Shown: positions 1,057 to 62,313, numbered from the stretch's first letter. The stretch: 64,000 nucleotides of DNA from an uncultured bacterium (GCA_937996685.1 CALKUP010000002.1:113066-177065), one strand, 5' to 3'. Notes: a model not told the origin generated them from the letters alone. Program-made: numbers and translations.

Positions 1057-1878
1057 ATGAGCGACACAGACACAAAACAATCAACAGCCGATGAGGCAGA
1101 TAAAAAATCAGGACTCGAAAAAATCCTCCCTGATAGCATGCCAAGCGTTTCATCATTGCTTGGGGGAACGGAAATTCAACCAGAGTCTTCAATTCCGTCT
1201 GAGGTTGTTGTTCCTGTTGCCCCGCAAGCTTCCGCGATTCCAAAGCCGCCTGCAGATGCTCCTGTTGTTGGTGTGCTGCAACATCCAAAGCCACAGCCTG
1301 CGGTTCCTGTAGCGCTGCCAAGTCAGCCACAGCCAATGAAAAATCGTGAACAACCACCAATTTTTGGATCACGTATTGGAAAAATGGTGTCCATTATTTT
1401 GGGGCTTGGACTATTTATTGCAATGATTGGCTTGATTATATTTTTCTTGGTGTCTCCGAACAGTGCGTTGTTTAGTGCGTTTAAAAAAGAGGATACAGTT
1501 GTGACAACGAATACAAATACCGCGCCAACAAATAGTGCTGTTGTGAATACGAGCAATACAAATTCTGCGTCAACGAACACTGAGTCAGTTGTGCCAAATG
1601 ATGCGGATGGAGACGGGTTGCTTGATAATCAAGAAGCCGGCTACCAAACAAACCCGAAAAAAATTGATACTGATGGAGACGAATTGACTGATCGACAAGA
1701 AATTGAAATTTACAAAACATCACCGACAAAAAAAGATACTGACGGAGATGGTTTTTCAGATGGTTCAGAGGTGCGTAATTTTTATAATCCAAATGGTCCA
1801 GGAAATTTAATTAATGTACCAGAGGCGATTGATTCACTTTCGAATAGTGCTGTAAATGGTACGAACGTTGTAAAATAA
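1057..1878 (+). CDS. Membrane-anchored protein with Pro/Gln-rich N-terminal region, one TM helix, Thr/Asn-rich linker and C-terminal thrombospondin-type-3-like calcium-binding repeats
   Basis: TM segment MVSIILGLGLFIAMIGLIIFFLV. Repeats DADGDGLLD, DTDGDELTD, DTDGDGFSDGSEV (D-x-D-G-D-G-x-x-D). Confidence 0.6.
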   Translation: MSDTDTKQSTADEADKKSGLEKILPDSMPSVSSLLGGTEIQPESSIPSEVVVPVAPQASAIPKPPADAPVVGVLQHPKPQPAVPVALPSQPQPMKNREQPPIFGSRIGKMVSIILGLGLFIAMIGLIIFFLVSPNSALFSAFKKEDTVVTTNTNTAPTNSAVVNTSNTNSASTNTESVVPNDADGDGLLDNQEAGYQTNPKKIDTDGDELTDRQEIEIYKTSPTKKDTDGDGFSDGSEVRNFYNPNGPGNLINVPEAIDSLSNSAVNGTNVVK

Positions 1879-6524: not shown

Positions 6525-6542
6525 TAATAGAAATGAAAACAA

Positions 6543-6567
6543 GCCGCTGTAACCAGCGGTTTTTTTC
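6543..6567 (+). terminator. Rho-independent terminator after ftsZ
   Basis: Hairpin ccgctg-taac-cagcgg followed by a T7 run. Confidence 0.6.
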
Positions 6568-6586
6568 TGTACGATATTTTGCTTTG

Positions 6587-6595
6587 TGGTATACT
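6587..6595 (+). promoter_or_regulatory. Extended -10 element TGGTATACT upstream of the sensor kinase gene
   Basis: TGnTATACT at 6587-6595. In-frame ATG at 6605, 9 nt downstream. Confidence 0.5.
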
Positions 6596-6604
6596 ATTGT
6601 TTGT

Positions 6605-8683
6605 ATGTCTCGGAGGAAAAAAAATAAAAACATATTTCACTATTTACAGATGCAGCCAACGATTGGAGAGTTGCTCTTTTTTTGTTTCCTGGTTGCATTG
6701 ACGAGTGCCTTTACATTATTCGAATTGCTTGAGCACATTCATTTTTTTACATCCATTGATTTATATCGTTTATCGATCGCTGTCGATGTCATGATTACTA
6801 TTGGGGTGTCGTCTATTTCGTTTGCACGATTTTTCGCGAAAAAGAATGATACGGTGTTGTTTATTGGTTTTGCATTTGTGAGTCACGGCATTATTGATGC
6901 GTTGCGTTTGCTTGCGATTAGTGATTATGGAATTCATCATTTCCGTGTCTCGCAGTACGCTTTGGTCCATTGGTCATGGCTCGCGTCAGAAACTGTCTGG
7001 GTCTCGTTGCTTGCGATGAGTGCAGTTGTCTGGTTTTTGCAAAAAAAATATGGAGAGCAAGCGCATGTACGGTGGGGAGTGTTGTCATTGGTGGTTGCGT
7101 TGTTGACGTTGTCCGCGACAATTTTCTTTTTTACAACGCCGGTGACGATTGATTTCTATCAACCGCTCGGTCCATTTTTGCGTCCATGGGAACTGATTCC
7201 TGGGCTCATTTCTCTGATTGCGCTCGTTTTATTTTTTATAAAAGGTGATTGGGAACACGATGCGTTTGATTTTGGTTTACTTATTGCGTTGTTATGTACA
7301 TCGTTGGGACATTTCTTTTTTGGTTCGCAATCGACCGCGATATTTGATCAACATTTTTATGCGGCGCAATTATTGACGCAAACCGGAATGCTGATCGTAG
7401 CTGTTGGGTTGTTTTATAGTATGACAACACTCTTTCAAGATGTTGAGTCAAAAGAGCTTCAGTTGGTTTCCCGGGTACATGATTTGAAGCGTGAAAAAGC
7501 AATGGATGATACATTTATTGAAAGTATTGGAGATGCGATTATTGTAACGGATAGTGATACCCGAATTACACGGGTAAACAAAGCATTTGAAGAAACAATG
7601 GGTTGGACTAAAAAAGAGGCGATTGGTCAGCCGGTGACAAAGGTATTGCCGATGTTTGATTTGCATAATGCTGCGATTCCGTATGAAAAGCGCCCACAAG
7701 CAAAAGCGTTATTTGCTGGTGAGCGAATTGAAACATCAATGGAATATACGTACCAAAGAAAGGACGGTTCCTTATTTTCGGTTGCGTCTACGGTGACTCC
7801 GGTGATTGTTGACGGAGATATTATCGGTGCAATTGAAGTGTTTCGAGATGTGTCAAAAGAAAAGATGATCGATGAGCAAAAGAGCACATTCGTGTCTGTT
7901 GCGTCACATCAACTGCGAACCCCGCTCACGACACTGAATTGGTACACGGAAATGTTGCTGTCTGGAGATGCCGGAAAAATTAATAAAAAACAGAAAGAAT
8001 TTTTATTAGAAATTTACCAAGGGAGTAAGCGCCTTGTTGTGTTGGTGAATGATTTATTGAATATTTCGCGCATTGAATCGGGCAGGCTGAAAATTCAACC
8101 GGTTGAAACGAGTATTCATTCGTTGATTAAAGAAACAGTCGCAGAAATCCGCCCGTTATTACGCGGTCGCTCAACAAGCGTGACTGTCGATATTCCAGCG
8201 CTTCAATTTACTGATGTTTTGATCGACCCGCTGATTTTACGTCAGGTGATTCATAATTTACTAACGAATGCTATTCGATATTCTTCGAAAGATACAAAAA
8301 GCGTGATTACTATTTCGGTGCAAAAAAAGCGTTTTGCGCTCACACGCAATAAAGCAGCGGAACTCAGACCAGGGAGTTATATTGTTATTGCTGTGAAAGA
8401 TCAGGGTATTGGTATTCCAAAGAACCAGCAAGATCGTATTTTTGAAAAGTTTTTTCGAGCAGACAATGCGCTGCATGCCGCCGCAGATGGGAGTGGTTTA
8501 GGTTTGTATTTTATTAAAATGATTATGCAAGAATCAGGCGGAGCGTTATGGTTTACCTCAAAAGAAAATCAAGGAAGTACCTTTTTTGTCGCTATCCCTG
8601 TTACTGGCATGAAAGCAAAGGTTGGAGATAAAGAAATATCAACAGTGGCTTCAACAGAATTGCTTTCAAAGGAGAAAAAATAG
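6605..8683 (+). CDS. Sensor histidine kinase with a polytopic N-terminal membrane sensor, PAS, HisKA and HATPase_c domains
   Basis: H-box FVSVASHQLRTPLTTL, G-box GSGLGLYFIK, about 8 predicted TM helices at the N-terminus. The ORF track start at 6533 lies inside the ftsZ terminator, so the ATG at 6605 (or 6649) is preferred. Confidence 0.8.
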   Translation: MSRRKKNKNIFHYLQMQPTIGELLFFCFLVALTSAFTLFELLEHIHFFTSIDLYRLSIAVDVMITIGVSSISFARFFAKKNDTVLFIGFAFVSHGIIDALRLLAISDYGIHHFRVSQYALVHWSWLASETVWVSLLAMSAVVWFLQKKYGEQAHVRWGVLSLVVALLTLSATIFFFTTPVTIDFYQPLGPFLRPWELIPGLISLIALVLFFIKGDWEHDAFDFGLLIALLCTSLGHFFFGSQSTAIFDQHFYAAQLLTQTGMLIVAVGLFYSMTTLFQDVESKELQLVSRVHDLKREKAMDDTFIESIGDAIIVTDSDTRITRVNKAFEETMGWTKKEAIGQPVTKVLPMFDLHNAAIPYEKRPQAKALFAGERIETSMEYTYQRKDGSLFSVASTVTPVIVDGDIIGAIEVFRDVSKEKMIDEQKSTFVSVASHQLRTPLTTLNWYTEMLLSGDAGKINKKQKEFLLEIYQGSKRLVVLVNDLLNISRIESGRLKIQPVETSIHSLIKETVAEIRPLLRGRSTSVTVDIPALQFTDVLIDPLILRQVIHNLLTNAIRYSSKDTKSVITISVQKKRFALTRNKAAELRPGSYIVIAVKDQGIGIPKNQQDRIFEKFFRADNALHAAADGSGLGLYFIKMIMQESGGALWFTSKENQGSTFFVAIPVTGMKAKVGDKEISTVASTELLSKEKK

Positions 8684-8739
8684 CCGCTGTGCCTATGCGC
8701 AAAGATATGGTACTCTATACGTAATTACAGATACATTTT

Positions 8740-9117
8740 ATGCCAGCATCCAAGCCCCACATTTTAATCGCAGAAGATGAAAAGCCAGTCGCAAAAGCTT
8801 TGTCTCTTAAATTAGAGCACGAAGGCTTTGCTGTGACCATTGTTGAAAACGGGGTTGATGCTCTCGCTGCCATTGAAAAAGATGATTTTTCATGCCTCGT
8901 CCTTGATTTGATGATGCCGGAAATGGATGGTTTTGAGGTATTGTCAGCCTTGCAGGAAAAACAGATCACAGGCGTGCCTATTTTGGTTGCGTCTAATCTC
9001 GCACAAGCTGAAGATATCGCTCGAGCAAAAGACCTTGGAGCTGATGATTATTATGTGAAATCCGATACGCCACTCACTGTTGTTGTTGAGCGTGTGCAAA
9101 AATTAGCTCGTACATAA
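8740..9117 (+). CDS. Single-domain response regulator (CheY-like receiver only)
   Basis: ILIAEDE...D-LMMPEMDGFEVL receiver motifs. 125 aa, no output domain. Immediately upstream of the pilus ATPase gene. Confidence 0.8.
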   Translation: MPASKPHILIAEDEKPVAKALSLKLEHEGFAVTIVENGVDALAAIEKDDFSCLVLDLMMPEMDGFEVLSALQEKQITGVPILVASNLAQAEDIARAKDLGADDYYVKSDTPLTVVVERVQKLART

Positions 9118-9122
9118 TATAT

Positions 9123-10823
9123 ATGAATCGTTTTGGCCTCTATTCTGAACCTGAAGTTATCGCTCTATTGGAAAAAGGGAATTATATTTCTGAATCCGAT
9201 CGTCTTGCGGCAACAAAAAAAGAAGAAGCGCAACCAGGCGGTGGTATTGATTTTTTAATTAACACAGAGTCGATTACATTTGATTTGATCGGTCAGGCAA
9301 TTGCTGAGAGTCTTGGTGTTGCATATGCGGATATCAATTCACGCAAACCGGCGCGTGACACAATGTTGCTGCTTCCAGAGGCAATGTCTCTTGAGTCACG
9401 TCTTGTGGTATACCGTGTGCAAGACAATGCGGTTGTGATCGCGACAGATGATGTGGTGGCGACAAAAAAAGCAGCAAAAAATATTGAGGCTGCGCTCGGC
9501 GGAAAAGCAGCAGTGTTTGCCTATGCCTTGCCGCAAGATATTTCCGAAGCACTGACTGTATTTCGGAAAGCGCTAGAAACACGTTTTTCTGCAATCATTG
9601 AAAAAACAAAACGTGTAGCACCAGAAATTATTACAGAGATTATCAATGACGCATTGATTTATCGCTCGTCTGATATTCACTTCGAGCCTCAAATGGATGA
9701 AGTAATTATTCGTTTCCGTATTGATGGTGTTTTGGAAGAAGCAGGCCGCGTGCCGATGGGGTATTACAGTACGATTGTGAATCGTGTGAAAGTGCAAGCG
9801 CGATTGCGGATTGACGAACATTTTGCAGCGCAAGACGGTGCAATTCGGTATGAACAAAACGGAGTCGTGACAGACATGCGTGTGTCGATTGTTCCGACGG
9901 TGAATGGAGAAAAAATTGTATTACGTTTATTGTCAGAAACAGCGCGTAATTTTACATTGGAAGATATTGGACTTGATTCTGCACATGAAGCGCAATTAAA
10001 AGAATCGTTTGCAAAACCGTTTGGGATGATTCTGGTCACTGGCCCAACAGGAAGTGGTAAAACAACAACGCTCTACACAGTGATTAAGGCGTTGAATACT
10101 CCGGATATTAATATTACAACCATCGAAGATCCGGTTGAATATAAAATTGCTGGCATCAATCAAATCCAAGTCAACGCAGAAACAAATATGACATTTGCAA
10201 AAGGCTTGCGTTCGATTGTGCGTCAAGATCCTGATGTGATTCTCGTTGGGGAAATTCGAGATACAGAAACAGCTGAAATTGCTGTGAACGCAGCATTGAC
10301 TGGTCATTTATTGTTGTCGACATTTCATGCAAACGATGCCGCGACAGCAATGCCGCGCTTGATTGATATGGGCATTGAGCCGTTTTTGCTCGCTTCAACA
10401 TTGGAAACGGTATTAGCGCAACGTTTAGTCCGTCGTATCTGTACAGAATGTCGGGTGAGTGTTGTTGTGACAAGCACAGAATTAAAAAAGGCCTACCCGG
10501 ATAGTTATGGTTTTTTTCCTGGAGCAAAAACGACGCTTTATAAAGGGAAGGGGTGCGCGGCGTGTCATGACAGTGGATACCGAGGACGTGTTGCGATTAT
10601 GGAGATGATTCAGATAACGCCAGAAATGGAAGCGTTGTTATTACAGCGACCATCGAGTCAAGAGATTTGGACGCTCGCTAGCAAGCAGGGAAGTGTGTCG
10701 TTATTTGAAGATGGTATTGCAAAAGTAAAATCTGGAATGACAACTCTTGGTGAAGTATATCGTGTTGCAAATCCGCCGGCGACAACAACAGCAGCGGTAA
10801 TGACGCGTAAAAAATCACGATAA
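9123..10823 (+). CDS. pilB: Type IV pilus / type II secretion assembly ATPase (PilB/GspE family) with an N-terminal T2SSE_N domain
   Basis: Walker A GPTGSGKTT, Asp box, tetracysteine CTEC...CAAC motif typical of GspE/PilB, N-terminal GSPII_E_N-like region. Confidence 0.9.
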   Translation: MNRFGLYSEPEVIALLEKGNYISESDRLAATKKEEAQPGGGIDFLINTESITFDLIGQAIAESLGVAYADINSRKPARDTMLLLPEAMSLESRLVVYRVQDNAVVIATDDVVATKKAAKNIEAALGGKAAVFAYALPQDISEALTVFRKALETRFSAIIEKTKRVAPEIITEIINDALIYRSSDIHFEPQMDEVIIRFRIDGVLEEAGRVPMGYYSTIVNRVKVQARLRIDEHFAAQDGAIRYEQNGVVTDMRVSIVPTVNGEKIVLRLLSETARNFTLEDIGLDSAHEAQLKESFAKPFGMILVTGPTGSGKTTTLYTVIKALNTPDINITTIEDPVEYKIAGINQIQVNAETNMTFAKGLRSIVRQDPDVILVGEIRDTETAEIAVNAALTGHLLLSTFHANDAATAMPRLIDMGIEPFLLASTLETVLAQRLVRRICTECRVSVVVTSTELKKAYPDSYGFFPGAKTTLYKGKGCAACHDSGYRGRVAIMEMIQITPEMEALLLQRPSSQEIWTLASKQGSVSLFEDGIAKVKSGMTTLGEVYRVANPPATTTAAVMTRKKSR

Positions 10824-11959
10824 TGACACAGCATTTTTCTCGAGAACGAACGGCCTTGCAGCGCTTCATGCGCTCGCTTGGTTTGAGTTTTTTGCGGTTG
10901 AATGTTTCTCGTGAACGCAAGCAATATATCATGGACAATATTGGCATTCAGTTATCATCTGGTCTTGATGTGTTGCAGGCAATTGAGGCGGTTGAAAAAG
11001 ATGCACAGTCTTGGGCGCTCGCTCGAATATTACGCATGATTGCGGAGGATGTGTTGTCTGGTGTGCCGTTTTGGCAAGCTCTTGGTGATACGCATTTATT
11101 TTCAATGCATATCGTTTCGCTGATTCGGATCGGTGAAGAGTCCGGAAAGCTCGCAGAAAATATTGCAGTGATCGCAAGCGAGCAAGATAAAGAACGTGTG
11201 TTTCAATCACGGATTCGCAGCGCATTGTTATACCCGGTATTTGTATTGAGTTTAACCGTGGTGATTGCAGTTGGTATCGCGTGGTTTATTTTGCCAAATA
11301 TTATTACGGTGTTTAAACAGATGGATATTGCCTTGCCGTTGCCGACACGAATCTTAATGGTTGTGGGGCGATTTTTCCGTGATTACGGCCACATTGCGGC
11401 GCCGTCTATTGTATTCGGCACAGTTGCTTTTGTGTATGGTGTGTTTTTTCACCCGCAAACAAAATTTATTGGACAGTGGTTATTGTTCCGAGTCCCAGGG
11501 ATTCGCCGGATCATGCAACAGCTCGAACTCGCACGCATGGGGTATGTTTTAGGCAATTTATTAGAAGCGGGACTCCCAATCGTTGAAGCCATTGAGTCAC
11601 TGGCCGATGCAACAGCCCTTCGAAGTTATAAAAAGTTTTATCAAGGATTGGCTCGTCGGATTGAAGACGGTGATTCATTTGCCGTTATTTTTGATTCGCA
11701 AAAACGCATTCGCCATCTTGTTCCGGTATCTATCCAGCAAATTATTACAACCGGTGAACAAACAGGTCATTTGCCAAAAAGTCTGAAAAAAATTGGAGAA
11801 ATCTATGAAGGCAAAACAGAAACATCGACAAAAAATATTGCAGTGATTCTCGAACCAATTTTATTAGTCATTGTCTGGGTTGGTGTTGTAACGGTTGCGT
11901 TGTCAGTTGTGCTTCCGATTTATAGTTTAATTGGTGGTTTAAATTCAGGTTCGTTGTAG
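10823..11959 (+). CDS. pilC: Type IV pilus platform protein (PilC/GspF family)
   Basis: Two T2SSF repeats, 378 aa, polytopic. Start overlaps the pilB stop (translational coupling). Confidence 0.85.
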   Translation: MTQHFSRERTALQRFMRSLGLSFLRLNVSRERKQYIMDNIGIQLSSGLDVLQAIEAVEKDAQSWALARILRMIAEDVLSGVPFWQALGDTHLFSMHIVSLIRIGEESGKLAENIAVIASEQDKERVFQSRIRSALLYPVFVLSLTVVIAVGIAWFILPNIITVFKQMDIALPLPTRILMVVGRFFRDYGHIAAPSIVFGTVAFVYGVFFHPQTKFIGQWLLFRVPGIRRIMQQLELARMGYVLGNLLEAGLPIVEAIESLADATALRSYKKFYQGLARRIEDGDSFAVIFDSQKRIRHLVPVSIQQIITTGEQTGHLPKSLKKIGEIYEGKTETSTKNIAVILEPILLVIVWVGVVTVALSVVLPIYSLIGGLNSGSL

Positions 11960-11962
11960 TGT

Positions 11963-12406
11963 ATGAAAGGGTTTGCAGAAGACGGATTTTCTCTTTTGGA
12001 GCTGTTGTTGTCCATTGCGTTAATTGGTATTTTGCTCGCGGCATCATTTCCGGTGTATCAGCAAGTGCAAAATAAAAATGCTGCAATGCTTGCCGCAAAC
12101 ACCATTGAACAAACAGTGCATCGGGCGACGTTGCTTGCGCGTTCAGGTGCGCAAGACAGCGCGTGGGGCGTGAAGGTTGCGTCCGGAAGTGTCACGTTAT
12201 TTTCAGGTGATTCTTATGCGGCTCGTGATACTGCATTTGATGAGGTGTTTACATTTTCGACAACAGTGCAATTCAGCACCACGCCTGAAATGGTATTTGC
12301 AAAACAGACTGGTGTGCAACCCGCTGATCAAACAATCGGGGTGTCGAGTCACGGTGAATCCGTAGTGACGCTCACTATTTTGACTAGTGGCGTTGTGAAT
12401 CGATAA
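11963..12406 (+). CDS. Prepilin-type N-terminal cleavage/methylation domain protein (minor pilin or pseudopilin)
   Basis: Class III signal: GFSLLELLLSIALIGILLA (G|F..E at +5). 147 aa. Confidence 0.75.
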   Translation: MKGFAEDGFSLLELLLSIALIGILLAASFPVYQQVQNKNAAMLAANTIEQTVHRATLLARSGAQDSAWGVKVASGSVTLFSGDSYAARDTAFDEVFTFSTTVQFSTTPEMVFAKQTGVQPADQTIGVSSHGESVVTLTILTSGVVNR

Positions 12407-12410
12407 TCCT

Positions 12411-15400
12411 ATGAAGCAATTACAGATTTTTCAGTTATGGCATAGACGCAACATTCGTGGCTTTTCAATTGTTGAAGCAATGCTGGCAGTGGCGGTGTTT
12501 GGGATTATTGTATCTGGAACCGTCGGCGCTTTGGTATACGCAAGTCAGGGCGGCGGTGATTCTGGTGTCCGTGTGCGCGCGAATTTTTTTGCAGCAGAAG
12601 GTATCACAGCAGTGCGCTCTATTGCTGGACATCAGTGGTATGACATTCAAAGTGCGGCAACTGGGCCGCATGGATTAGTGGTGACGGGAAATGTGTGGAC
12701 TCTCTCTGGATCGTCGGATACACGTGATCAATTTACCCGCACAGTCACATTTACAGATATCTGTCGGAATGCAACGAATGATTTTGAAACGTGCAACGGG
12801 ACAAATCGTGATACCCGAACACGAGAAGTTGCAGTCACTGTTCAATGGACTGGGCAATTTGGGAATGCGCGAACTGTCACACAAACAGCACGCTTAACAA
12901 ACTGGGGAACGGACATGTGGAAGCAGACTGATTGGTCAGGTGGAGATGGTCAAGCGACGTGGTCTGCGGAAGATCAATATGATAGTCACACTGATGATAT
13001 TGATGTTACAACAGCGGGAGAGGTGACAGCGACCGGCGCTCAGCAAGGCTGTGGAATAAAAACATATCCGCTCACAACTCCAGCGGATTACACTGCGTCA
13101 GGGGCTGAACTCACGCTGAATTCTGGAACCGCCTTTTTAACATCATCAGGCACCGACGTTGATGCAAACACAAAAGGTTTGTGGCATTTGAATGATGCTT
13201 CGGGCACAGCGAAAGATGTTTCTGGAAATAATAATAATCTGACAGCAGCGGGTAATGCGGCGTATGGTGCAGCGGCAAAGTTTGCGACGGGTGTGACATC
13301 TGACGGTTCAGGTGATCTTTTGGCTGTGACTGATGCTGCGCAGTCTGGTCTTGATATTACGGGTGCTATCACGTTGGAAGCATGGATTAAACAGGGTGCA
13401 ACGGGAACTGGAACAGATGTCATTATGGAAAAAAATGGTGGAACGGCGGCAACGGGTTCATATCAGTTGTATATGGTCAGCTCTGGCGCCTTGAACACAA
13501 CGCTGAATTTCCGCGTGAGTAACGGAACGAGTTTCACGACTGTGACTTCAGCTGCGTTTGCGATCAACACAAGTACATGGCGACATGTTGCGGCGGTGTA
13601 TAATGGTACATCAACGCTGACGATTTATCTCGATGGCGTATCTGTCGGAACAGCGGCATTTAGTTCGACGATTTTGAATAGCGCGGCAGATTTTCGTATT
13701 AGCTCTACAGGCACAAGCTCGTTTAATGGGATGATTGATGAGGTGCGTGTTTCAAACAGTGCGCGATATGCAGGAAATTTTGCAGTTCCAACAACGCCAT
13801 TTGGATTGAATTATTCGACTACAAAACCAACAGTTGCTCCAGCAGTGGAATACGATCCGGCAACGATTGGGCGGTGGCAGGCATTTTCTGAAACAGCCAC
13901 AAAAACGCGTGATGCAGAAATTTATTATCAGTTGTCTGACGATAGCGGAGCGACCTGGAAATGGTGGAACGGATCTGCGTGGGCAACAGCAAGTAGTGGC
14001 ACAGACTACAATACTGCAACGACAATCAATACAAATATCACGACATTTTCAACAACTGCCGGGAAATTGAATTGGCGAGCCTTTTTTGTGAGCAATGGTT
14101 CAGATCCAGCGGTGCTTGATTCTGTGTCGTTGACCTGCGTGATGTTGCAACAATGGAATTACGACACAAGCGGGGATTACGCCGCAGACAGCGGCGTGGC
14201 AGTGAGTAGCGGCGCGGCGGCGCTGACGTCAACAGGAACGGACGCTGATGCAAATACGGTTGCGTTGTGGCACATGAATGAAGCGACGAGTGGAGCGGTC
14301 CTACAAGATTACACCGCAAACAACAATGATTTGACGCCTGTAGGAACAACGAATATTACCTGGAATACGACTGGTAATTTTAATGGCGCAGTGCAATTTG
14401 GCGCAACGGGTGATTACTTTCAATTAGCCGGCGCCGCACAAACCGGAATGGCTCCGTCTGGTTCGTTTACCATTGATGGTTGGATTAAAAAGTCCACCAA
14501 TAGTGCGGACGATCTATTTCAACGTTGGGGAACAGGTCTTTCAACGCGGTCATATAAACTGTCGATTAACACGACTGGAAATCTGGTATTTCAAACAGGG
14601 GACGGTGTGACGAATACATCGCTCACATCAGCGACAACTGTGACGACTGGTAGTTGGGTGCATGTCGCAGGGCAGTTTACGCAAAACAGCGCAACGACTG
14701 GAACAATGACAATCTGGATTAATGGCGTACAGCGTGGAAGTATATCAACAACCTATGGTTCAGTGGTGAGTGCGTCGCAGGCAGTGCTTTTGAGTAATAC
14801 AAGTGCATCGGCGTTTGGTGGTGTGGTTGATGAGTTCCGTTTTTCAAATATAGCGCGTTACTCAACGACCTTTACTCCGCAGATTGTGCCATTTGGAAAA
14901 GTGTATCCAACAAACTCTCCGACCATTCGCAATGTGGCTGCATTCTCAGCGACCGATCCTGTTGCGTGGTATGGTATGACGAGTACACAAACAACATTCA
15001 ATGAAAGCGCGGTGAATTATCAGGTCAGCAACGATGGTGTTACTTGGAAGTATTGGAATGGCTCAGCATGGGCAACGGCGAGTAGTGCCACGCACTATAA
15101 TCCTATCGCGACAATCAATACGAATATTGCAACATTTCCACTCACAGGCAACTCCCTCTATTTCAAGGCTTTTTTGGTAAGCTCTGGCTCTGACGTTGTT
15201 TCGATTGATCGGACAGAAGCGATGTATGTACAAAACCCTGATGCGAGTGGAAGTGGTGGCGGTGGCGGATCTGGAACGTTGACCTCATCGGCGTTTAACC
15301 TCGGACGCGCGACAACAATTACACGTGTTGAATGGGATGAAGACGACACGCCATGTGCTGCTGACTGTGTGATTCGAGCCCAAGTGCGGACAGCGCCAGA

Positions 15401-15596
15401 CAATGGTGGGTCGCCGGGAACCTGGACCGCGTGGTATGGTGCATCTGGAGCGGGAACCTATTTTACAGACGGTGATTATTCAACACCTCCAGATCAAGTG
15501 CAGAATAATCGTTGGGTGCAATACAAATTAGACCTCAATGGAACAGGTGGCGGAACGCCAGTCGTGCGAGAATTCAGAATATATTATGATAAATAA
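12411..15596 (+). CDS. Giant prepilin-type protein (1061 aa) with two tandem LamG / concanavalin-A-like lectin modules; candidate pilus-tip adhesin
   Basis: N-terminus RGFSIVEAMLAVAVFGIIVSG prepilin motif. Two internally duplicated modules of about 440 aa each begin LTSSGTDVDANTKGLWHLNDASG.. and LTSTGTDADANTVALWHMNEATSG.. (Laminin_G_3-like), each followed by a WKWWNGSAWATASSGT.. beta-sandwich. Confidence 0.7.
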   Translation: MKQLQIFQLWHRRNIRGFSIVEAMLAVAVFGIIVSGTVGALVYASQGGGDSGVRVRANFFAAEGITAVRSIAGHQWYDIQSAATGPHGLVVTGNVWTLSGSSDTRDQFTRTVTFTDICRNATNDFETCNGTNRDTRTREVAVTVQWTGQFGNARTVTQTARLTNWGTDMWKQTDWSGGDGQATWSAEDQYDSHTDDIDVTTAGEVTATGAQQGCGIKTYPLTTPADYTASGAELTLNSGTAFLTSSGTDVDANTKGLWHLNDASGTAKDVSGNNNNLTAAGNAAYGAAAKFATGVTSDGSGDLLAVTDAAQSGLDITGAITLEAWIKQGATGTGTDVIMEKNGGTAATGSYQLYMVSSGALNTTLNFRVSNGTSFTTVTSAAFAINTSTWRHVAAVYNGTSTLTIYLDGVSVGTAAFSSTILNSAADFRISSTGTSSFNGMIDEVRVSNSARYAGNFAVPTTPFGLNYSTTKPTVAPAVEYDPATIGRWQAFSETATKTRDAEIYYQLSDDSGATWKWWNGSAWATASSGTDYNTATTINTNITTFSTTAGKLNWRAFFVSNGSDPAVLDSVSLTCVMLQQWNYDTSGDYAADSGVAVSSGAAALTSTGTDADANTVALWHMNEATSGAVLQDYTANNNDLTPVGTTNITWNTTGNFNGAVQFGATGDYFQLAGAAQTGMAPSGSFTIDGWIKKSTNSADDLFQRWGTGLSTRSYKLSINTTGNLVFQTGDGVTNTSLTSATTVTTGSWVHVAGQFTQNSATTGTMTIWINGVQRGSISTTYGSVVSASQAVLLSNTSASAFGGVVDEFRFSNIARYSTTFTPQIVPFGKVYPTNSPTIRNVAAFSATDPVAWYGMTSTQTTFNESAVNYQVSNDGVTWKYWNGSAWATASSATHYNPIATINTNIATFPLTGNSLYFKAFLVSSGSDVVSIDRTEAMYVQNPDASGSGGGGGSGTLTSSAFNLGRATTITRVEWDEDDTPCAADCVIRAQVRTAPDNGGSPGTWTAWYGASGAGTYFTDGDYSTPPDQVQNNRWVQYKLDLNGTGGGTPVVREFRIYYDK

Positions 15597-15597
15597 G

Positions 15598-16110
15598 ATG
15601 AAGCACTCACAAGCCGGATTTACATTGATTGAATTACTGCTGTACGCTGGTATTGTTGCAATTATGACAACCGCGATTTCGGGCTTGCTTGCGCTGTCTC
15701 TTCAGGCGCGCGTCAAAAATCAAGTGGTGGAGTCAGTTGAAAGTGGCTCGACGATCGCAATGGACAGCATGCTTGCGGCAATTCGTAATAGCGACGGCGT
15801 GACACTGACAACAGATGGTAATGGTGATGCGATTGTGACGCTTGCAGAAACAGTTGCTGGAGTACATCCAACCGTCTTTCAATTGAGTGCTGGAGTCTTA
15901 ACAAAAAAAGAAGGAAGTAGCGCAGCAGTGCCGGTGACGTCTTCGAATATTGTCATTGATCATTTCACGGCAACAGACACAACGCCGAGCGGTGAAACAA
16001 TGCAAGTCATTTCTCTTGGATTTGATGTGCGTTATAATAATCAAAGTCCGCGTCAGGAATATCAGTATGCTGCAACGTATAATGGCACAGCGCAACTCAA
16101 CACACCGTAG
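15598..16110 (+). CDS. Prepilin-type minor pilin
   Basis: MKHSQAG|FTLIELLLYAGIVAIM classic short leader plus G-F-T-L-I-E. The ATG at 15598 sits 1 nt after the stop of the giant pilin gene. Confidence 0.75.
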   Translation: MKHSQAGFTLIELLLYAGIVAIMTTAISGLLALSLQARVKNQVVESVESGSTIAMDSMLAAIRNSDGVTLTTDGNGDAIVTLAETVAGVHPTVFQLSAGVLTKKEGSSAAVPVTSSNIVIDHFTATDTTPSGETMQVISLGFDVRYNNQSPRQEYQYAATYNGTAQLNTP

Positions 16111-16114
16111 TAGT

Positions 16115-16540
16115 ATGAACTATTTTCTTACACAATTAAGATATAGAGAATCCCAATCCGGTTACGTCTTGTTGCTCTCCGTTGTGATTATTGGAGTTGT
16201 TGCAAGTAGTATTGCCGCAACTATTTTGTTACTTGGGATTGGCACACAGCGGACGTCGCTCGCAGTGCAAGAAGGTCAGGCGGCGCGACATTTAGCTGAT
16301 AGTTGTGCTCAAGAAGTAATTGAGCGGCTTATTCAAAATACCGCCTATACTGGGAGTGAAACACTGACATTTAACGGTGAGAGTTGTGCGGTCGGGCCTG
16401 TGACAGGTTCAGGAGACGCAAATCGCGTTATCCATGTCACTGGGGTGTCAGGAGATGCAACCGCGCGCGTGGCTGTTACGGTGACAACAGTCGGTCCACC
16501 GGTGGTTATTGGTTCATGGCAAGAAGTTGCAGGCTTTTAG
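16115..16540 (+). CDS. Putative PilX-like minor pilin (hydrophobic N-terminal pilin-like helix, non-canonical cleavage site)
   Basis: N-terminus QSGYVLLLSVVIIGVVASSIAATILLLG resembles the PilX_N / GspK N-terminal segment. Overlaps the previous stop (tagtATG). Confidence 0.45.
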   Translation: MNYFLTQLRYRESQSGYVLLLSVVIIGVVASSIAATILLLGIGTQRTSLAVQEGQAARHLADSCAQEVIERLIQNTAYTGSETLTFNGESCAVGPVTGSGDANRVIHVTGVSGDATARVAVTVTTVGPPVVIGSWQEVAGF

Positions 16541-16602: not shown

Positions 16603-17046
16603 ATGAGGAAACAGAACCAAGGTTTTACATTATTAGAAATTTTGCTTGTTATCGCAGCGATCGGCATTTTGGCTGGTATTGTGATTGTTGCGATTAACCC
16701 AACAAAGCAACTCGCTGATGCGCGGAATGCGGCTCGTAAGTCAGCAGTCAATACTGTGCTGAACGCTGTATATCAATATGCAGTTGATAATGACGGTGCT
16801 CTGCCAGGAAGTATTCCAGAAACAGCGACAGAAATTTGTGCAACCGGCGCTGGAAGTTGTACAGGATTGGTGAATTTGTCTGCATTGACGACAAATGAAC
16901 GATATTTAACAGCAATCCCAGAAGATCCAAGTGGAACATGTGCGGCAAACGGTGCGTGTTATGAAATTCTGCAATCTGCAAACGGCCGTGTAACAGTCTC
17001 TGCTCCGGATGCTGAAAACGGTGCTGATATTTCAGTGACTCGTTAA
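16603..17046 (+). CDS. Type IV major pilin (PilA / ComGC / GspG-like)
   Basis: MRKQNQG|FTLLEILLVIAAIGILAGI canonical class III signal. 147 aa with two Cys pairs (C..C ; C..C) for C-terminal disulfide loops. Confidence 0.8.
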   Translation: MRKQNQGFTLLEILLVIAAIGILAGIVIVAINPTKQLADARNAARKSAVNTVLNAVYQYAVDNDGALPGSIPETATEICATGAGSCTGLVNLSALTTNERYLTAIPEDPSGTCAANGACYEILQSANGRVTVSAPDAENGADISVTR

Positions 17047-28329: not shown

Positions 28330-28395
28330 ACTAGTAGTGACACATCATTGACAAGACAAAACACCTCGGCCGCATGAATGCTTTCGGGGTGTTTT

Positions 28396-29721
28396 ATGTT
28401 TCATCGATCAACCGTCGTGTTATTTCTTTTGCTGCTCGTGTGCGCTGTTTCAGTGTGGCGTCATCCAACTCCACGAGAGGTGAGCGCGGTGTATTTTCAT
28501 GATGCCGACAGAGTGCAGTTCGATGACGTGCGCGCTGTGGTTGTGCGCGAGCCAGATGTCTCTGAACACGACCAGCGGATCACAATTGCCGTTGATGGGC
28601 TTGGGGCGCAAGAAGAGTATTACGTGCGGATTACAACTGACGTCTATCCGTTTGTTCGCATTGGCGATGTGTTTGAGTTGTCGTGTGTTTTCAAGCGGCC
28701 GGAACCATTTGATGGTTTTGCATATGATGCCTATTTATTACGGTATCGAATTATCGCGGAATGCCGTCAACCGCAGATTCGTATTATCGGTAGAGAAGAA
28801 ACGATCCTCACGCACATCATTGATCAAAAGTTGTGGCTCATTGAACGATTGCAGCGCGATCTTCCATTGCCGGAAGCCGGTTTGTTGCTGGGGATTGTAT
28901 TCGGGGAAATGCGCGCGTTGCCTGATGAAATATTACAAGCCTTTCAAGTCACGGGCACATCCCATTTGTTGGTGATTTCTGGTTCAAATATTGTGCTCAT
29001 CACCGGCTGGATTCAAGCGTTCCTCCGGTGCTGTACAGCTGAACGCGGACGCATTCTGATTATTTTGGTTGCACTGACTGGATATACGGTAATGACCGGT
29101 GTGCAGCCATCTGCGACGCGCGCGGCAATTTTTGGCGGGATTATTTTGTGCAGCAATGCATTTGGTCGGCCGAATCAAGCGCTGCGTGGACTTGTGTACA
29201 CAGGGATTGTGATGGTCATTCTCAATCCGTTGATCTTGCTCTATGACGCCGGCTTTCAATTATCGTGGCTTGCAAGTTGCGGCATGATTGTTTGGAGTGA
29301 CCGGCTAACGAAAGCGCTGTCGTTTGTCCCCGAGCGTTTTGAATTACGCGCGGCTGCAAGCGCGACCCTCAGCGCGACGCTGATCACAACGCCGCTGTTG
29401 GTGGCGCAATTTCAAGTATTTTCTGTGATTGGATTTATTGCGAACCTCTTTTTGGTTCCACTTCTGTCTTCGTTTTTATTACTTGGCATTCTCTACACGG
29501 CGTGCGCTGTGGTGTTGCCGTGGCTCGCTGCGCTGGTGAGCGTGCCATTTCTTGTGGTGTTGCGTTACAGCGTGACCTTCGTGCTCTTTTTTTCGCACGT
29601 GCCGTATGCGCAAGTTCCGACGACTGTACCAGTCTCCAGCATGGTGATGTGCTATGCTGTACTCGGAATCTATATCTTGTACGTCATGCTCAAAAAACCT
29701 CAGTATCACTTTTATGAATAA
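28396..29721 (+). CDS. comEC: DNA internalisation competence protein ComEC/Rec2, membrane-channel part (DUF4131 plus competence domain)
   Basis: Conserved HLLVISGSNI and polytopic C-terminal region. The ORF track start at 28378 lies in a hairpin loop, so the ATG at 28396 is preferred. Confidence 0.75.
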   Translation: MFHRSTVVLFLLLLVCAVSVWRHPTPREVSAVYFHDADRVQFDDVRAVVVREPDVSEHDQRITIAVDGLGAQEEYYVRITTDVYPFVRIGDVFELSCVFKRPEPFDGFAYDAYLLRYRIIAECRQPQIRIIGREETILTHIIDQKLWLIERLQRDLPLPEAGLLLGIVFGEMRALPDEILQAFQVTGTSHLLVISGSNIVLITGWIQAFLRCCTAERGRILIILVALTGYTVMTGVQPSATRAAIFGGIILCSNAFGRPNQALRGLVYTGIVMVILNPLILLYDAGFQLSWLASCGMIVWSDRLTKALSFVPERFELRAAASATLSATLITTPLLVAQFQVFSVIGFIANLFLVPLLSSFLLLGILYTACAVVLPWLAALVSVPFLVVLRYSVTFVLFFSHVPYAQVPTTVPVSSMVMCYAVLGIYILYVMLKKPQYHFYE

Positions 29722-30631
29722 TACGAACGCAGAGCAGATTCGTGAAAAACGCAGCCGCCTCTTTTCATGGGTGATATTTTTCATATTACTCAGTGTGTCT
29801 GGTTTTGTTGCCTGGCAAGCAATGTCGACAATGCAGCAGCAATGGACACAAGACGGTGGGGTTCTGCGAGTGACGCAGCTCAATGTTGGTCAAGGCGATG
29901 GATTGCTTGTGCAAACCCCGCAAGGCAACGACATTCTTATTGACGCTGGTCGTGATCGTCGGATTCTGTCTGAAATCGGCACAGTGCTGCAGCCGTGGAA
30001 TACAACAATTGAATATGTGATCGCAACCCATGAAGACGCTGATCATATTGGTGGATTTCCGTTTATCGCACAGCAGTATCAGATCAATGAATGGATTGTG
30101 AGTGGTCGAACAAAAGAGACTACTGTCACAAAAGAATTGCATGCAGCGCAAGAGCGTGAAGGAGTGATGCATGTTGCGACAGCTGGAGAATCTATTGCGA
30201 TAGAAGATGGTGTTAGTCTTGAAATTCTCAGTCCAGATCAAGATGTGCCAGCCCATGAAGATATTAATGATGATTCAGTTGTGGCGATTTTGCACTACCA
30301 CGACTTTGCTCTTGCGCTCACCGGGGATGCTGGAATCACGTCTGAAAATGAGATCATGAAGCGTCACGAGCCAATTGATGTTGATATTCTGAAGGCCGGG
30401 CATCATGGTAGCAAGACCTCAACAAGTCCAGAGTTTTTGCAGTGGCTCGATCCGGAAATTGTGCTGATTTCCGCTGGGCAAGACAATGATTACGGGCATC
30501 CGCATTATCGAGTGCTGCACGATATTGAGCAATATGGCGCCTGGATATTCCGTACAGACAAAGATGGTCGAATTACATGTGAAACAGAGGGACTGCCAGG
30601 AGATGTTCAGTGTTCCAGGCAGTATGAATAA
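29714..30631 (+). CDS. ComEC C-terminal metallo-beta-lactamase domain encoded as a separate TM-anchored ORF
   Basis: HxHxDH-type motif ATHEDADHIGG, GHHGSKTS. N-terminal TM SWVIFFILLSVSGFVAW. Start ATGAATAA overlaps the comEC stop by 8 nt. Confidence 0.75.
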   Translation: MNNTNAEQIREKRSRLFSWVIFFILLSVSGFVAWQAMSTMQQQWTQDGGVLRVTQLNVGQGDGLLVQTPQGNDILIDAGRDRRILSEIGTVLQPWNTTIEYVIATHEDADHIGGFPFIAQQYQINEWIVSGRTKETTVTKELHAAQEREGVMHVATAGESIAIEDGVSLEILSPDQDVPAHEDINDDSVVAILHYHDFALALTGDAGITSENEIMKRHEPIDVDILKAGHHGSKTSTSPEFLQWLDPEIVLISAGQDNDYGHPHYRVLHDIEQYGAWIFRTDKDGRITCETEGLPGDVQCSRQYE

Positions 30632-62278: not shown

Positions 62279-62298
62279 TGAATGAATTGTATCATATA

Positions 62299-62307
62299 TG
62301 ATATAAT
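62299..62307 (+). promoter_or_regulatory. Consensus extended -10 TGATATAAT; ATG 6 nt downstream (leaderless)
   Basis: TGaTATAAT 62299-62307. ATG 62314. Confidence 0.5.
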
Positions 62308-62313
62308 TGTTCC

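What the first reader, a model, noticed from the sequence alone, without database searches (positions are those of the whole stretch)
12411..15596. Giant prepilin with two tandem LamG (concanavalin-like) modules: candidate pilus-tip adhesin
The N-terminus RGFSIVEAMLAVAVFGI is a class III (prepilin) signal. The remaining roughly 1000 aa form two internally duplicated units of about 440 aa. Each starts with a Laminin_G_3-type motif (L-T-S-x-G-T-D-x-D-A-N-T-x-x-L-W-H-(L/M)-N-(D/E)-A-(S/T)-G) and ends with a W-K-(W/Y)-W-N-G-S-A-W-A-T-A-S-S beta-sandwich. Pilins are normally under 200 aa. A pilin fused to lectin-like modules suggests a tip-located adhesin for host-cell or substrate binding, relevant to an episymbiotic lifestyle. 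The duplication itself suggests modular expansion.
Basis: seen in the sequence. Interest (0 to 1): 0.8.

Follow-up and report, generated by a model that had tools for sequence, protein, structure and literature searches.

The report
Giant lectin-carrying type IV minor pilin
This gene encodes a 110-kDa type IV pilin from an ultrasmall (CPR/Patescibacteria) bacterium that carries two sugar-binding-type LamG modules, so it is probably a pilus-tip adhesin; this kind of "modular pilin" is already described, which makes it a good but ordinary example.

Summary
ORF 12411-15596 (+, 1061 aa) has a class III prepilin signal (…RG|FSIVE, Glu5), two Pfam Laminin_G_3 domains (E 6.7e-34) and a real internal duplication (36 % identity, E 4e-66).

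- The repeat unit is about 363 aa, not 440.
- Each unit is a LamG module plus a separate ~110-aa CBM-like beta-sandwich ("s", holding the WKWWNGSAW motif).
- The units are flanked by a ~200-aa pilin module and a third ~107-aa beta-sandwich ("C").

The gene is the second of four minor-pilin genes in a conserved pilB-pilC-(minor pilins)-major pilin operon, in a Patescibacteria genome near Kerfeldbacteria and Uhrbacteria.

An exhaustive search places it in a family of at least 93 clusters of giant pilins (318-2414 aa). They share the N-terminal pilin module and the C-terminal s-C modules. The middle cargo varies: LamG, H-type lectin, CBM2, pentraxin. LamG units have duplicated repeatedly.

The best reading is a tip-displayed, glycan-binding modular minor pilin. 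It is functionally analogous to S. sanguinis PilC and Saccharibacteria PilX1. N_methyl+PF13385 pilins are already catalogued (PMC8179133), so this is a new member of a known kind. Tip location and ligand are inferred, not shown.

The parts
12411..12461 (+). Leader peptide (aa 1-17) of the class III signal, ending in Gly17. Predicted prepilin-peptidase cleavage site G17|F18.
   Evidence: Sequence. Pfam N_methyl covers aa 12-36. Relatives have leaders of 5-29 aa ending in G before (F/Q/I/A)xxxE.
12462..13055 (+). Pilin module (aa 18-215). It holds the alpha1 helix (aa 20-78, Glu5 = E22), a beta-sheet (aa 87-163) with a Cys118-Cys128 loop, and a conserved W-x-QTDWSGG-x-GQ segment (aa 165-215).
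   Evidence: AF2 mini-construct: H20-78, then strands 87-163, pLDDT mostly 77-95. The profile matches the alpha1N of solved pilins: Geopilin 9egp E 0.0018, PilA 9laa E 0.014. Invariant G17, E22, C118, C128, W165, Q172, W175 across the family.
13056..13805 (+). LamG module 1 (aa 216-465), a Laminin_G_3 / ConA-like jelly roll.
   Evidence: Pfam PF13385 best stretch aa 300-452. pLDDT 66-82 in the core. Foldseek hits to laminin LG4-5, neurexin LNS and BoNT/TeNT Hc, E 1e-9 to 1e-6. The PDB profile hits LamG-type domains: 4qvs 3.6e-10, arabinanase 5hon 1.2e-7.
13806..14144 (+). Small module s1 (aa 466-578). A CBM-like beta-sandwich holding the Asp-box-like SDDSGATW-KWWNGSAWATASS motif.
   Evidence: No Pfam hit. 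46 % identical to s2. Homologous modules occur in nearly all family members. Its paralogue s2 was modelled at pLDDT 84-96.
14145..14897 (+). LamG module 2 (aa 579-829), the faster-evolving copy.
   Evidence: Second PF13385 stretch. pLDDT 69-87. 34 % identical to LamG-1. 65 % identity between the window protein and P0002, against 89 % for LamG-1.
14898..15233 (+). Small module s2 (aa 830-941), a CBM-like beta-sandwich.
15234..15272 (+). Gly/Ser-rich linker (aa 942-954, NPDASGSGGGGGS).
   Evidence: Sequence. pLDDT below 50 in the model.
15273..15596 (+). C-terminal module 'C' (aa 955-1061, plus stop). A beta-sandwich with Cys982/Cys986, conserved at the C-terminus of 90 of 93 family members.
   Evidence: Module HMM hits. 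No Pfam hit. AF2 pLDDT 87-97. Not significantly similar in sequence to s (hhalign E 0.12).
9123..10823 (+). PilB/GspE-type assembly ATPase.
   Evidence: Pfam T2SSE E 1.2e-121, plus MshEN.
10823..11959 (+). PilC/GspF-type platform protein.
   Evidence: Pfam T2SSF x2, E 2.9e-43.
11963..12406 (+). Minor pilin 1 (147 aa, G|FSLLE). Weakly GspH/ComGD-like.
   Evidence: N_methyl 24 bits. Sub-threshold gspH hit 4.4e-5 over aa 7-121 and ComGD hit 3.5e-4.
15598..16110 (+). Minor pilin 3 (170 aa, AG|FTLIE).
   Evidence: N_methyl 25 bits. Conserved position in L001, L002, L003 and L005.
16115..16540 (+). Pilin-like protein lacking Glu5 (…SQSG|YVLLLSVVIIG). Candidate cap (K-type) subunit. The start codon is uncertain: the mechanical ORF starts upstream, at 15950 or 16082.
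   Evidence: Sequence. The same Glu5-less protein is at the same position in L001, L002, L003, L005 and L006. No Pfam or NCBIfam hit.
16603..17046 (+). Major-pilin-like protein (147 aa, G|FTLLEILLVIAAIGILAG).
   Evidence: N_methyl 28.6 bits. IV_pilin_GFxxxE 28 bits against a cut-off of 16.3. Sub-threshold GspG and ComGC hits.
6533..9117 (+). Histidine kinase (6533-8683) and a single-domain response regulator (8740-9117) directly upstream of pilB. Possibly regulatory.
   Evidence: ORFs. The same PAS-HisKA-HATPase and REC pair is upstream of pilB in L002. REC and HK genes are downstream in L001.

Best explanation
The gene encodes a modular type IV minor pilin of a Patescibacteria (CPR) bacterium.

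Shown by computation: it has a class III signal with G-1/F+1/E+5. It has a predicted pilin alpha1-plus-beta-sheet module. That module is followed by two tandem [LamG jelly roll + CBM-like 's' sandwich] units and a conserved terminal sandwich 'C'. The gene is second of four minor-pilin genes between pilB/pilC and the major pilin gene.

Inferred mechanism:
1. A prepilin peptidase encoded elsewhere in the genome removes the 17-residue leader.
2. The hydrophobic alpha1 holds the protein in the membrane.
3. Together with the three small minor pilins, one of which lacks Glu5 and would sit on top, it forms the priming complex. That complex ends up at the pilus tip when PilB/PilC polymerise the major pilin beneath it.
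4. The ~95-kDa C-terminal extension cannot fit in the filament body, so it projects from the tip.
5. Its LamG modules, and possibly the s and C modules, bind glycans on a host cell or on a substrate surface.

Across the family the N and s-C modules are a constant scaffold. The middle cargo is exchanged or duplicated, which would retune binding specificity or avidity.
For: Pilin identity:
- Signal motif and N_methyl.
- The profile matches the alpha1N of solved pilins.
- AF2 mini-construct, mean pLDDT 82, with H20-78 followed by strands 87-163.
- The pilB-pilC-pilin operon is conserved in relatives at 80 %, 87 %, 45 % and 41 % identity.
- Sub-threshold similarity of the family N-modules to the I-type minor pilins ComGE (18/28), GspI (11/28) and PilV (6/28). 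JGI names P0002 'PilV'.

Lectin-type cargo:
- PF13385 x2, with jelly-roll fold matches.
- Other family members carry H_lectin, CBM_2 x2 or pentraxin/LamG instead.
- No GH16-type catalytic motif.
- Extracellular-type composition: GAST 46.5 %, against 26-31 % for PilB, PilC and CTP synthase.

Scaffold and cargo:
- 93 of the top 150 cluster representatives share N, and 90 of those also share C.
- Natural N-C (318 and 342 aa) and N-s-C (493 aa) minimal members exist.

Precedent:
- S. sanguinis PilC is a pilin with a ConA-like lectin module. It binds glycans and is modelled in a tip complex with a Glu5-less PilA (PMC9934059).
- TM7x PilX1/PilX2 are lectin-like minor pilins, and the pilX2 deletion mutant is defective in host binding (PMC11623550).
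- N_methyl+PF13385 is a frequent architecture (PMC8179133).

CPR origin: CTP synthase best named hits are Kerfeldbacteria, Uhrbacteria and Patescibacteria.
Against: - No experiment exists. Cleavage, incorporation into pili, tip location and ligand are all inferred.
- No prepilin peptidase, PilT or PilM/N/O gene lies in the 64-kb window.
- The C-terminal s-C modules are conserved rather than variable. That is unexpected if they were the ligand-binding end, and their role is unknown.
- LamG/PF13385 domains are not always lectins.
- All domains are under purifying selection (dN/dS below 0.1, though dS is saturated), with no sign of diversifying selection.
Confidence: 0.62

Rival explanations
1. 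Surface-display anchor, not a pilus subunit. The class III signal and alpha1 helix only tether the protein in the membrane, or in a short pseudopilus. It would then act as a cell-surface glycan or polysaccharide-capture protein, like the class III-signal sugar-binding proteins of the Sulfolobus 'bindosome' (from my own knowledge).
For: Cargo in relatives includes CBM_2 (cellulose/chitin-type) and H_lectin, which would also fit substrate capture. The same LamG+s cassette occurs in non-pilin giant surface proteins of Patescibacteria, L008 and L029. No retraction ATPase is in the window.
Against: Glu5 is strictly conserved. The gene has a fixed position among four minor pilins next to the major pilin in every locus. 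Both point to co-assembly into a filament. The modular pilins characterised so far are pilus-borne (PMC8179133, PMC9934059).
Confidence: 0.15
2. Priming-only role. The protein is needed to nucleate pilus assembly, as I-type minor pilins are. Its large extension would be a spacer, shield or structural cap with no specific ligand.
For: Weak I-type (GspI/PilV/ComGE) similarity and second position in an H-I-J-K-like gene order. N and s-C are conserved under purifying selection.
Against: Cargo is repeatedly swapped among lectin and CBM-type modules and is duplicated. That is hard to explain without a binding function. Minimal N-C members show the extension is dispensable for the scaffold.
Confidence: 0.1
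3. DNA-receptor pilin of a competence pilus, like Thermus ComZ, serving DNA uptake through ComEC.
For: ComEC (Competence and Lactamase_B domains) lies 13 kb downstream. CPR type IV pili are often proposed to take up DNA (discussed in PMC11623550). ComGE and ComGD are among the weak NCBIfam matches.
Against: The mature protein is strongly acidic, pI 4.6. Its modules are lectin and CBM-type, not DNA-binding folds. ComEC is not in the operon and appears split.
Confidence: 0.06
4. Pilus-borne enzyme. The ConA-like modules would be glucanases that cut host or substrate polysaccharide, not lectins.
For: The ConA-like superfamily includes glycoside hydrolases. Peptidase-bearing modular pilins exist (PMC8179133).
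Against: The hits are to PF13385/LamG, pentraxin and laminin types, not to GH families. There is no ExDxxE or ExDxE motif.
Confidence: 0.03

Closest known systems
Streptococcus sanguinis PilC, a modular minor pilin with a concanavalin A-like lectin module (PMC9934059)
   Same: Class III signal and pilin module followed by a ConA-like/LamG-superfamily module. Encoded among the pilin genes of a monoderm-type T4P locus. Accompanied by a small Glu5-less minor pilin (PilA there, 16115-16540 here). The proposed role is tip-displayed glycan adhesin.
   Different: There is no detectable sequence homology. Neither the protein nor the LamG profile hits PilC among PDB sequences. The window protein is twice as large, about 110 kDa against 52.8 kDa. 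It has two LamG modules plus three CBM-like sandwiches, and a full-size rather than unusually short pilin module. Binding is untested.
Catalogued N_methyl (IPR012902) + PF13385 modular pilins (Raynaud et al. 2021, PMC8179133)
   Same: Exactly this Pfam architecture class. Many examples come from CPR phyla.
   Different: That survey is a domain-architecture census. It does not describe the conserved N…s-C scaffold or the undescribed s and C modules, and it does not cover the repeated LamG+s duplication. Family members here reach 2414 aa.
Saccharibacteria (TM7x) PilX1 and PilX2, lectin-like minor pilins (PMC11623550)
   Different: PilX1 and PilX2 were reported to lack a predicted PilD signal, whereas the window protein has a canonical one. 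No LamG domain is reported in them.
GspK / PilX-type large tip minor (pseudo)pilin, and the GspI/PilV/ComGE I-type subunit of the HIJK tip complex
   Same: A minor pilin of a four-member set encoded together. The bulky subunit is expected at the tip. Weak profile similarity to the I-type, and second position in the gene order.
   Different: GspK lacks Glu5 and carries an alpha-helical insertion. The giant has Glu5 and beta-sandwich cargo. All NCBIfam matches are far below their cut-offs (17.9 against 49 bits).
PilY1/PilC non-pilin tip adhesins of diderm T4aP
   Same: Very large, modular, tip-associated adhesins with swappable N-terminal modules (PMC8179133).
   Different: PilY1 is not a pilin and is defined by a C-terminal beta-propeller (IPR008707). 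No such domain is found here.

Membership tests
Type IV pilin (class III signal peptide protein) | Short polar leader ending in Gly(-1), a methylatable +1 residue, Glu at +5, and a hydrophobic tract of about 20 aa | tested here: met
   …NIRG|FSIVEAMLAVAVFGIIVSGTVGALVYA. Pfam N_methyl 21.3 bits against 21.2 on the whole protein and 23.6 on the N-module. 22 of 28 family members match.
Type IV pilin (class III signal peptide protein) | Alpha1 helix of about 50 residues packed on an antiparallel beta-sheet (lollipop fold) | tested here: inconclusive
   [not shown]
Type IV pilin (class III signal peptide protein) | Encoded with the T4P/T4F assembly genes (PilB/GspE ATPase, PilC/GspF platform, other pilins) | tested here: met
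   T2SSE at 9123-10823, T2SSF at 10823-11959, and four further pilin-like genes. The synteny is conserved in L001, L002, L003, L005 and L006.
Type IV pilin (class III signal peptide protein) | Processing by a prepilin peptidase (PilD, Peptidase_A24) | not testable with these tools
   No Peptidase_A24 gene is among the window ORFs scanned. The rest of the 241-kb contig is not available. Cleavage needs an experiment.
Modular pilin sensu Raynaud et al. 2021 (PMC8179133) | [quoted passage not shown] | tested here: met
   N_methyl plus two PF13385 domains.
Laminin_G_3 / concanavalin A-like lectin-glucanase superfamily | Pfam PF13385 above the gathering score | tested here: met
   117.6 bits against 27.6, in two stretches.
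Laminin_G_3 / concanavalin A-like lectin-glucanase superfamily | Jelly-roll beta-sandwich fold | tested here: met
   LamG cores at pLDDT 66-87. Foldseek hits to laminin LG4-5 (2jd4, 1.3e-9), neurexin LNS, BoNT/TeNT Hc and pentraxin.
Laminin_G_3 / concanavalin A-like lectin-glucanase superfamily | Carbohydrate (or other ligand) binding | not testable with these tools
   Needs glycan arrays or binding assays.
Orthologue of S. sanguinis PilC | Detectable sequence homology to PilC | tested here: not met
   phmmer of the protein against PDB sequences gives no hit at E <= 1. The LamG profile hits other LamG-type proteins but not PilC. PMC9934059 reports crystal structures of PilC; I assumed, without checking, that they are in this PDB copy. 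The relationship is one of analogy or superfamily only.
GspK/PilX-type cap pseudopilin | Absence of Glu5 | tested here: not met
   The giant has E22, which is Glu5. The Glu5-less protein is the neighbour at 16115-16540.
GspI / PilV / ComGE (I-type core minor pilin) | Match to the family model at its curated cut-off | tested here: inconclusive
   Only sub-threshold hits, largely to alpha1N. ComGE scores 17.9 against 49 bits for the window protein and matches 18 of 28 family members. GspI matches 11 of 28 and PilV 6 of 28. The gene-order position is consistent.
PilY1/PilC non-pilin adhesin | C-terminal PilY1-type beta-propeller and no class III signal | tested here: not met
   No such Pfam domain, and a class III signal is present.
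TM7x PilX1 family | Sequence or structure homology to PilX1 (pilin plus C-terminal jelly roll) | not tested
   The PilX1 sequence was not retrievable with the tools. The natural N-C minimal members (P0112, P0176) have the same outline.

The most novel reading that the evidence does not exclude
Probability: 0.25. Interest if true: 0.6.

Novelty: new member of a known kind. Interest (0 to 1): 0.35.

Why it matters
How ultrasmall CPR/Patescibacteria recognise and attach to hosts or surfaces is largely unknown outside a few cultivated Saccharibacteria. This protein and its family give concrete candidate recognition molecules for Kerfeldbacteria- and Uhrbacteria-like lineages, where at least 93 clusters share a scaffold and carry exchangeable lectin-type cargo. 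They also lead to testable predictions. Cargo type should correlate with host or habitat. The isolated LamG, s and C modules should bind defined glycans. The Glu5-less neighbour should cap a tip complex containing the giant pilin. Public records name these proteins only 'hypothetical' or 'LamG-like jellyroll fold domain-containing protein', so annotating them as modular minor pilins would be useful. As biology it extends an established concept rather than opening a new one.

Tried and rejected
- The full-length AF2 run with the 4-sequence family MSA was poor (mean pLDDT 43). Only the LamG cores were usable.
I replaced it with exact full-length compact members, and that job was accepted.
- The word-indexed search with the N-module profile returned only 3 proteins. 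The word-indexed search with the whole protein found only 3 full-length relatives. The exhaustive search showed the family is much larger.
- I tested whether module C is a third copy of s. hhalign gave E 0.12, which is not significant. Both modules are beta-sandwiches in the model.
- dN/dS per domain against the 80 % relative is below 0.1 everywhere, but dS is saturated (above 1, and undefined for LamG-2). The test for diversifying selection is therefore uninformative.
- The look-up of encoding contigs had no record for the window protein itself.
- No GH16-type catalytic motif is present.
- PDB sequence searches found no solved homologue of the whole protein. They matched only the alpha1N of the pilin module to solved pilins. 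A weak hit to repeats of the grappling-hook protein GhpA (E 7e-4) was judged spurious.
- The Foldseek PDB search with the mini-model gave only weak jelly-roll hits.
- The NCBI organism labels of the nearest MAGs ('Gammaproteobacteria', 'Bdellovibrionales') were rejected as taxonomy, in favour of the CPR placement from CTP synthase.
Full report
OBSERVATION. The N-terminus MKQLQIFQLWHRRNIRG|FSIVEAMLAVAVFGIIVSG… has the three hallmarks of a class III (prepilin) signal. These are Gly at -1, Phe at +1 and Glu at +5, and a hydrophobic tract of about 25 residues follows. Pfam N_methyl is just above its gathering score on the whole protein (21.3 against 21.2 bits). It scores 23.6 bits on the N-terminal 250 aa, and 22 of 28 homologous N-modules also match it. 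Pfam Laminin_G_3 (PF13385) is unambiguous: 117.6 bits against a cut-off of 27.6, E 6.7e-34, in two stretches. Aligning aa 201-578 against 579-945 gives 36 % identity over 372 columns, E 4e-66. Both quoted motifs are present, at aa 243-265 and 605-628 and at aa 516-529 and 879-892.

CORRECTIONS. The repeat unit is about 363 aa (216-578 and 579-941), not about 440. Each unit has two parts: a LamG module of about 250 aa and a separate ~110-aa module, which I call 's'. The 's' module carries an Asp-box-like SxDxGxTW hairpin followed by WNGSAW, and no Pfam family covers it. Aa 18-215 form the pilin module. Aa 942-954 are a Gly/Ser linker. Aa 955-1061 are a third small module, 'C', also without a Pfam match. 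By sequence, C is not significantly related to s (hhalign E 0.12).

CONTEXT AND ORGANISM. The gene lies in a one-directional operon. The order is a histidine kinase (6533-8683), a response regulator (8740-9117), the PilB/GspE ATPase (9123-10823, T2SSE E 1e-121) and the PilC/GspF platform (10823-11959). Then come a 147-aa pilin (11963-12406), the giant, a 170-aa pilin (15598-16110), a ~141-aa pilin-like protein (16115-16540) and a 147-aa major-pilin-like protein (16603-17046). The rest of the window is chromosomal housekeeping: FtsA, FtsZ, a release factor (PCRF/RF-1 domains), ComEC, PGK, enolase, iPGM, RecJ, an EPSP_synthase-family enzyme and CTP synthase. It holds no prepilin peptidase, PilT or PilM/N/O gene. 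The CTP synthase's best named relatives are Candidatus Kerfeldbacteria (67-69 %), Candidatus Uhrbacteria (63-64 %) and 'Patescibacteria group'. The window is therefore from a CPR/Patescibacteria genome. The NCBI labels of the two nearest MAGs ('Gammaproteobacteria', 'Bdellovibrionales') are most likely wrong.

The same gene order surrounds the relatives at 87 %, 80 %, 45 % and 41 % identity (L003, L002, L006, and L001 and L005). In every locus the fourth small protein has a class III-like signal but no Glu5 (G|YVLLL…, G|FSALL…, G|VAALL…). The giant and the other pilins all have Glu5.

STRUCTURE. A full-length AF2 run with only four sequences was poor (mean pLDDT 43). The two LamG cores still reached pLDDT 66-87. 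Foldseek matched them to laminin LG4-5, neurexin LNS, the lectin-like subdomain of clostridial neurotoxin Hc, and pentraxin (E 1e-9 to 1e-6). By sequence profile, the LamG modules hit an S-layer-domain protein (4qvs, 3.6e-10), the LamG-like module of an arabinanase (5hon), pappalysin, laminin and pentraxins. They do not hit S. sanguinis PilC.

To model the uncharacterised parts I built a window-derived mini-construct, aa 1-243 plus 830-1061. It mimics natural N-s-C members such as P0081. I aligned it with 34 exact natural compact members. The model has mean pLDDT 82. It shows a 59-residue helix (aa 20-78), then strands at 87-163, which is the pilin lollipop order. Two confident beta-sandwiches follow (s2 at pLDDT 84-96, C at 87-97).

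FAMILY. The word-indexed search suggested a tiny family: P0002 at 80 %, a fragment, and P0004 at 41 %. All other hits shared only LamG and lacked a pilin N-terminus. The exhaustive HMMER search changed this. It found 14,504 hits at E <= 1e-3, mostly through LamG, and 703 at E <= 1e-30. I scored the best 150 cluster representatives with module HMMs built from the family.
- 93 have the N-terminal pilin module at their N-terminus, and 90 of these also end in module C.
- Nearly all of the 93 have at least one s module, and 71 pass a strict G|xxxxE pattern.
- The architectures are N-s-C (33), N-s-s-C (23), N-s-s-s-C (7), N-L-s-L-s-C (6, including the window protein), N-L-s-C (4), N-C (3) and others.
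- Lengths run from 318 to 2414 aa.
- Natural minimal members are N-C (P0112 at 318 aa, P0176 at 342 aa) and N-s-C (P0081 at 493 aa).
- Only about 20 of the 93 carry LamG. Others carry H-type lectin, two CBM_2 modules, pentraxin/LamG or DUF2341 in the variable middle.

Named members come from Candidatus Uhrbacteria, Candidatus Magasanikbacteria and the Parcubacteria group. Public annotation calls them 'hypothetical' or 'LamG-like jellyroll fold domain-containing protein'. The LamG+s cassette also occurs in non-pilin giant surface proteins of Patescibacteria (L008, L029).

DUPLICATION HISTORY. The Uhrbacteria relative (L005/P0040, 702 aa) has a single LamG+s unit. In P0004 the two units are 62 % identical to each other, and both are closer to the window protein's unit 1. 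In an unbootstrapped NJ tree, the within-protein LamG copies of P0004, P0029 and P0031 cluster together. In the window lineage, the L1 and L2 copies separated before the window protein and P0002 diverged. Duplication is therefore recurrent, or the copies are homogenised by gene conversion. Between the window protein and P0002, LamG-2 is 65 % identical against 89 % for LamG-1. All domains show dN/dS below 0.1, but dS is saturated.

MECHANISM. What is shown computationally: the signal, the predicted pilin topology, the operon, the lectin and CBM-type modules, and the scaffold-plus-cargo family design. What is inferred:
1. A prepilin peptidase encoded elsewhere removes the leader.
2. The protein joins the three small minor pilins in a priming complex.
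3. The Glu5-less neighbour takes the top position, because a subunit without Glu5 cannot neutralise the N-terminus of a subunit above it. This argument is made for GspK and for S. sanguinis PilA in PMC9934059.
4. [quoted passage not shown]

Gene order, together with weak sub-threshold profile matches, suggests the giant occupies the I-type position of an H-I-J-K-like set. The first pilin gives GspH and ComGD hits. The giant's N-module gives ComGE (18/28), GspI (11/28) and PilV (6/28) hits. JGI calls P0002 'PilV'. This assignment is tentative.

The mature protein is acidic (pI 4.6). It is rich in Gly, Ala, Ser and Thr (46.5 %, against 26-31 % for PilB, PilC and CTP synthase) and lacks GH16-type motifs. 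This argues against DNA-binding and glucanase roles.

COMPARISON WITH WHAT IS KNOWN. Modular pilins are an established concept. Raynaud et al. (PMC8179133) counted more than 1,200 of them in 264 architectures. They list PF13385 among the functions found in the 15 commonest architectures, and their examples come from several CPR phyla. S. sanguinis PilC is a pilin carrying a ConA-like lectin module. It binds human glycans and is modelled with PilA and PilB as a tip complex (PMC9934059). In Saccharibacteria TM7x, PilX1 (jelly-roll) and PilX2 (propeller) are lectin-like minor pilins, and the pilX2 deletion mutant is defective in host binding (PMC11623550).

The window protein meets every testable criterion for a modular type IV pilin. 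It is not an orthologue of PilC, since no sequence similarity was found. It is not a GspK-type cap, since it has Glu5. It is not a PilY1-type adhesin. Its relationship to TM7x PilX1 could not be tested. A literature search found no description of the N…s-C family.

VERDICT. The kind is already known, so this is a new member, with some undescribed features: two CBM-like module types without Pfam families, a conserved N…s-C scaffold, and recurrent cargo duplication and exchange. Interest is moderate to low for a specialist (0.35). The most novel reading still open is a CPR-wide cassette-swapping host-recognition adhesin family, possibly related to phage tail modules. I put its probability at about 0.25 and its interest, if true, at about 0.6.

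Noticed in passing
window 16115-16540 (+); mechanical ORF from 15950 or 16082: A pilin-like protein with a class III-like signal but no Glu5 (…SQSG|YVLLLSVVIIG). It has no Pfam or NCBIfam match. It is conserved at the same operon position in L001, L002, L003, L005 and L006. It is a candidate cap (K-type) subunit of the tip complex.
   Followed up: partly
window 28378-29721 and 29654-30631 (+): ComEC appears split into two ORFs in different frames that overlap by 68 nt (DUF4131+Competence, then Lactamase_B). This could be a frameshift, a sequencing error or a genuine split.
   Followed up: no
window 51982-53289 (+) and 53286-53810 (+): Cytochrome bd oxidase subunit I (E 3.6e-93) in a Patescibacteria genome, followed by a 174-aa ORF with no Pfam hit where subunit II would be expected.
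   Followed up: no
window 1057-1878 (+) and 62314-63054 (+): Two proteins with bacterial thrombospondin type-3 (TSP3_bac) repeats. The second overlaps the histidine kinase gene on the opposite strand (60743-62629), so it may not be a real gene.
   Followed up: no
L003 (CAZBLE010000007.1) and L004 (JBIIKE010000016.1): The nearest MAGs, whose giant pilins are 87 % and 79 % identical and share the synteny, are labelled 'uncultured Gammaproteobacteria' and 'Bdellovibrionales' in NCBI. The window's CTP synthase places the lineage in Patescibacteria, so these are probably mislabelled bins.
   Followed up: partly
[not shown]
   Followed up: no
window 14145-14897 compared with 13056-13805: LamG-2 evolves about four times faster than LamG-1 at the protein level between the window protein and its 80 % relative (dN 0.264 against 0.065; 65 % against 89 % identity).
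   Followed up: partly
L008 (JAUPVU010000057.1) and L029 (JBHPIO010000016.1): Giant proteins (over 1880 and over 2080 aa) in Patescibacteria carry the same s module. L029 has repeated LamG-s cassettes. Neither matches the pilin N-module HMM. L008 has a hydrophobic stretch in its N-terminal region. L029 runs off the contig end, so its true N-terminus is unknown. The cassette is shared between pilins and other surface proteins.
   Followed up: partly
window 6533-9117 (+); L002 916-3410; L001 14678-21767: A PAS-HisKA-HATPase kinase and a stand-alone REC protein sit next to the pilus operon in three loci, which suggests two-component control of this pilus.
   Followed up: no
window aa 165-215 of the giant (nt 12903-13055) and family members: A nearly invariant motif, TNW-x3-W-x-QTDWSGG-x-GQ-x2-WS-x5-Y-x-SDDGN, follows the pilin beta-sheet in all family members. 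It is modelled as a small structured segment (pLDDT 79-95). Its function is unknown.
   Followed up: no
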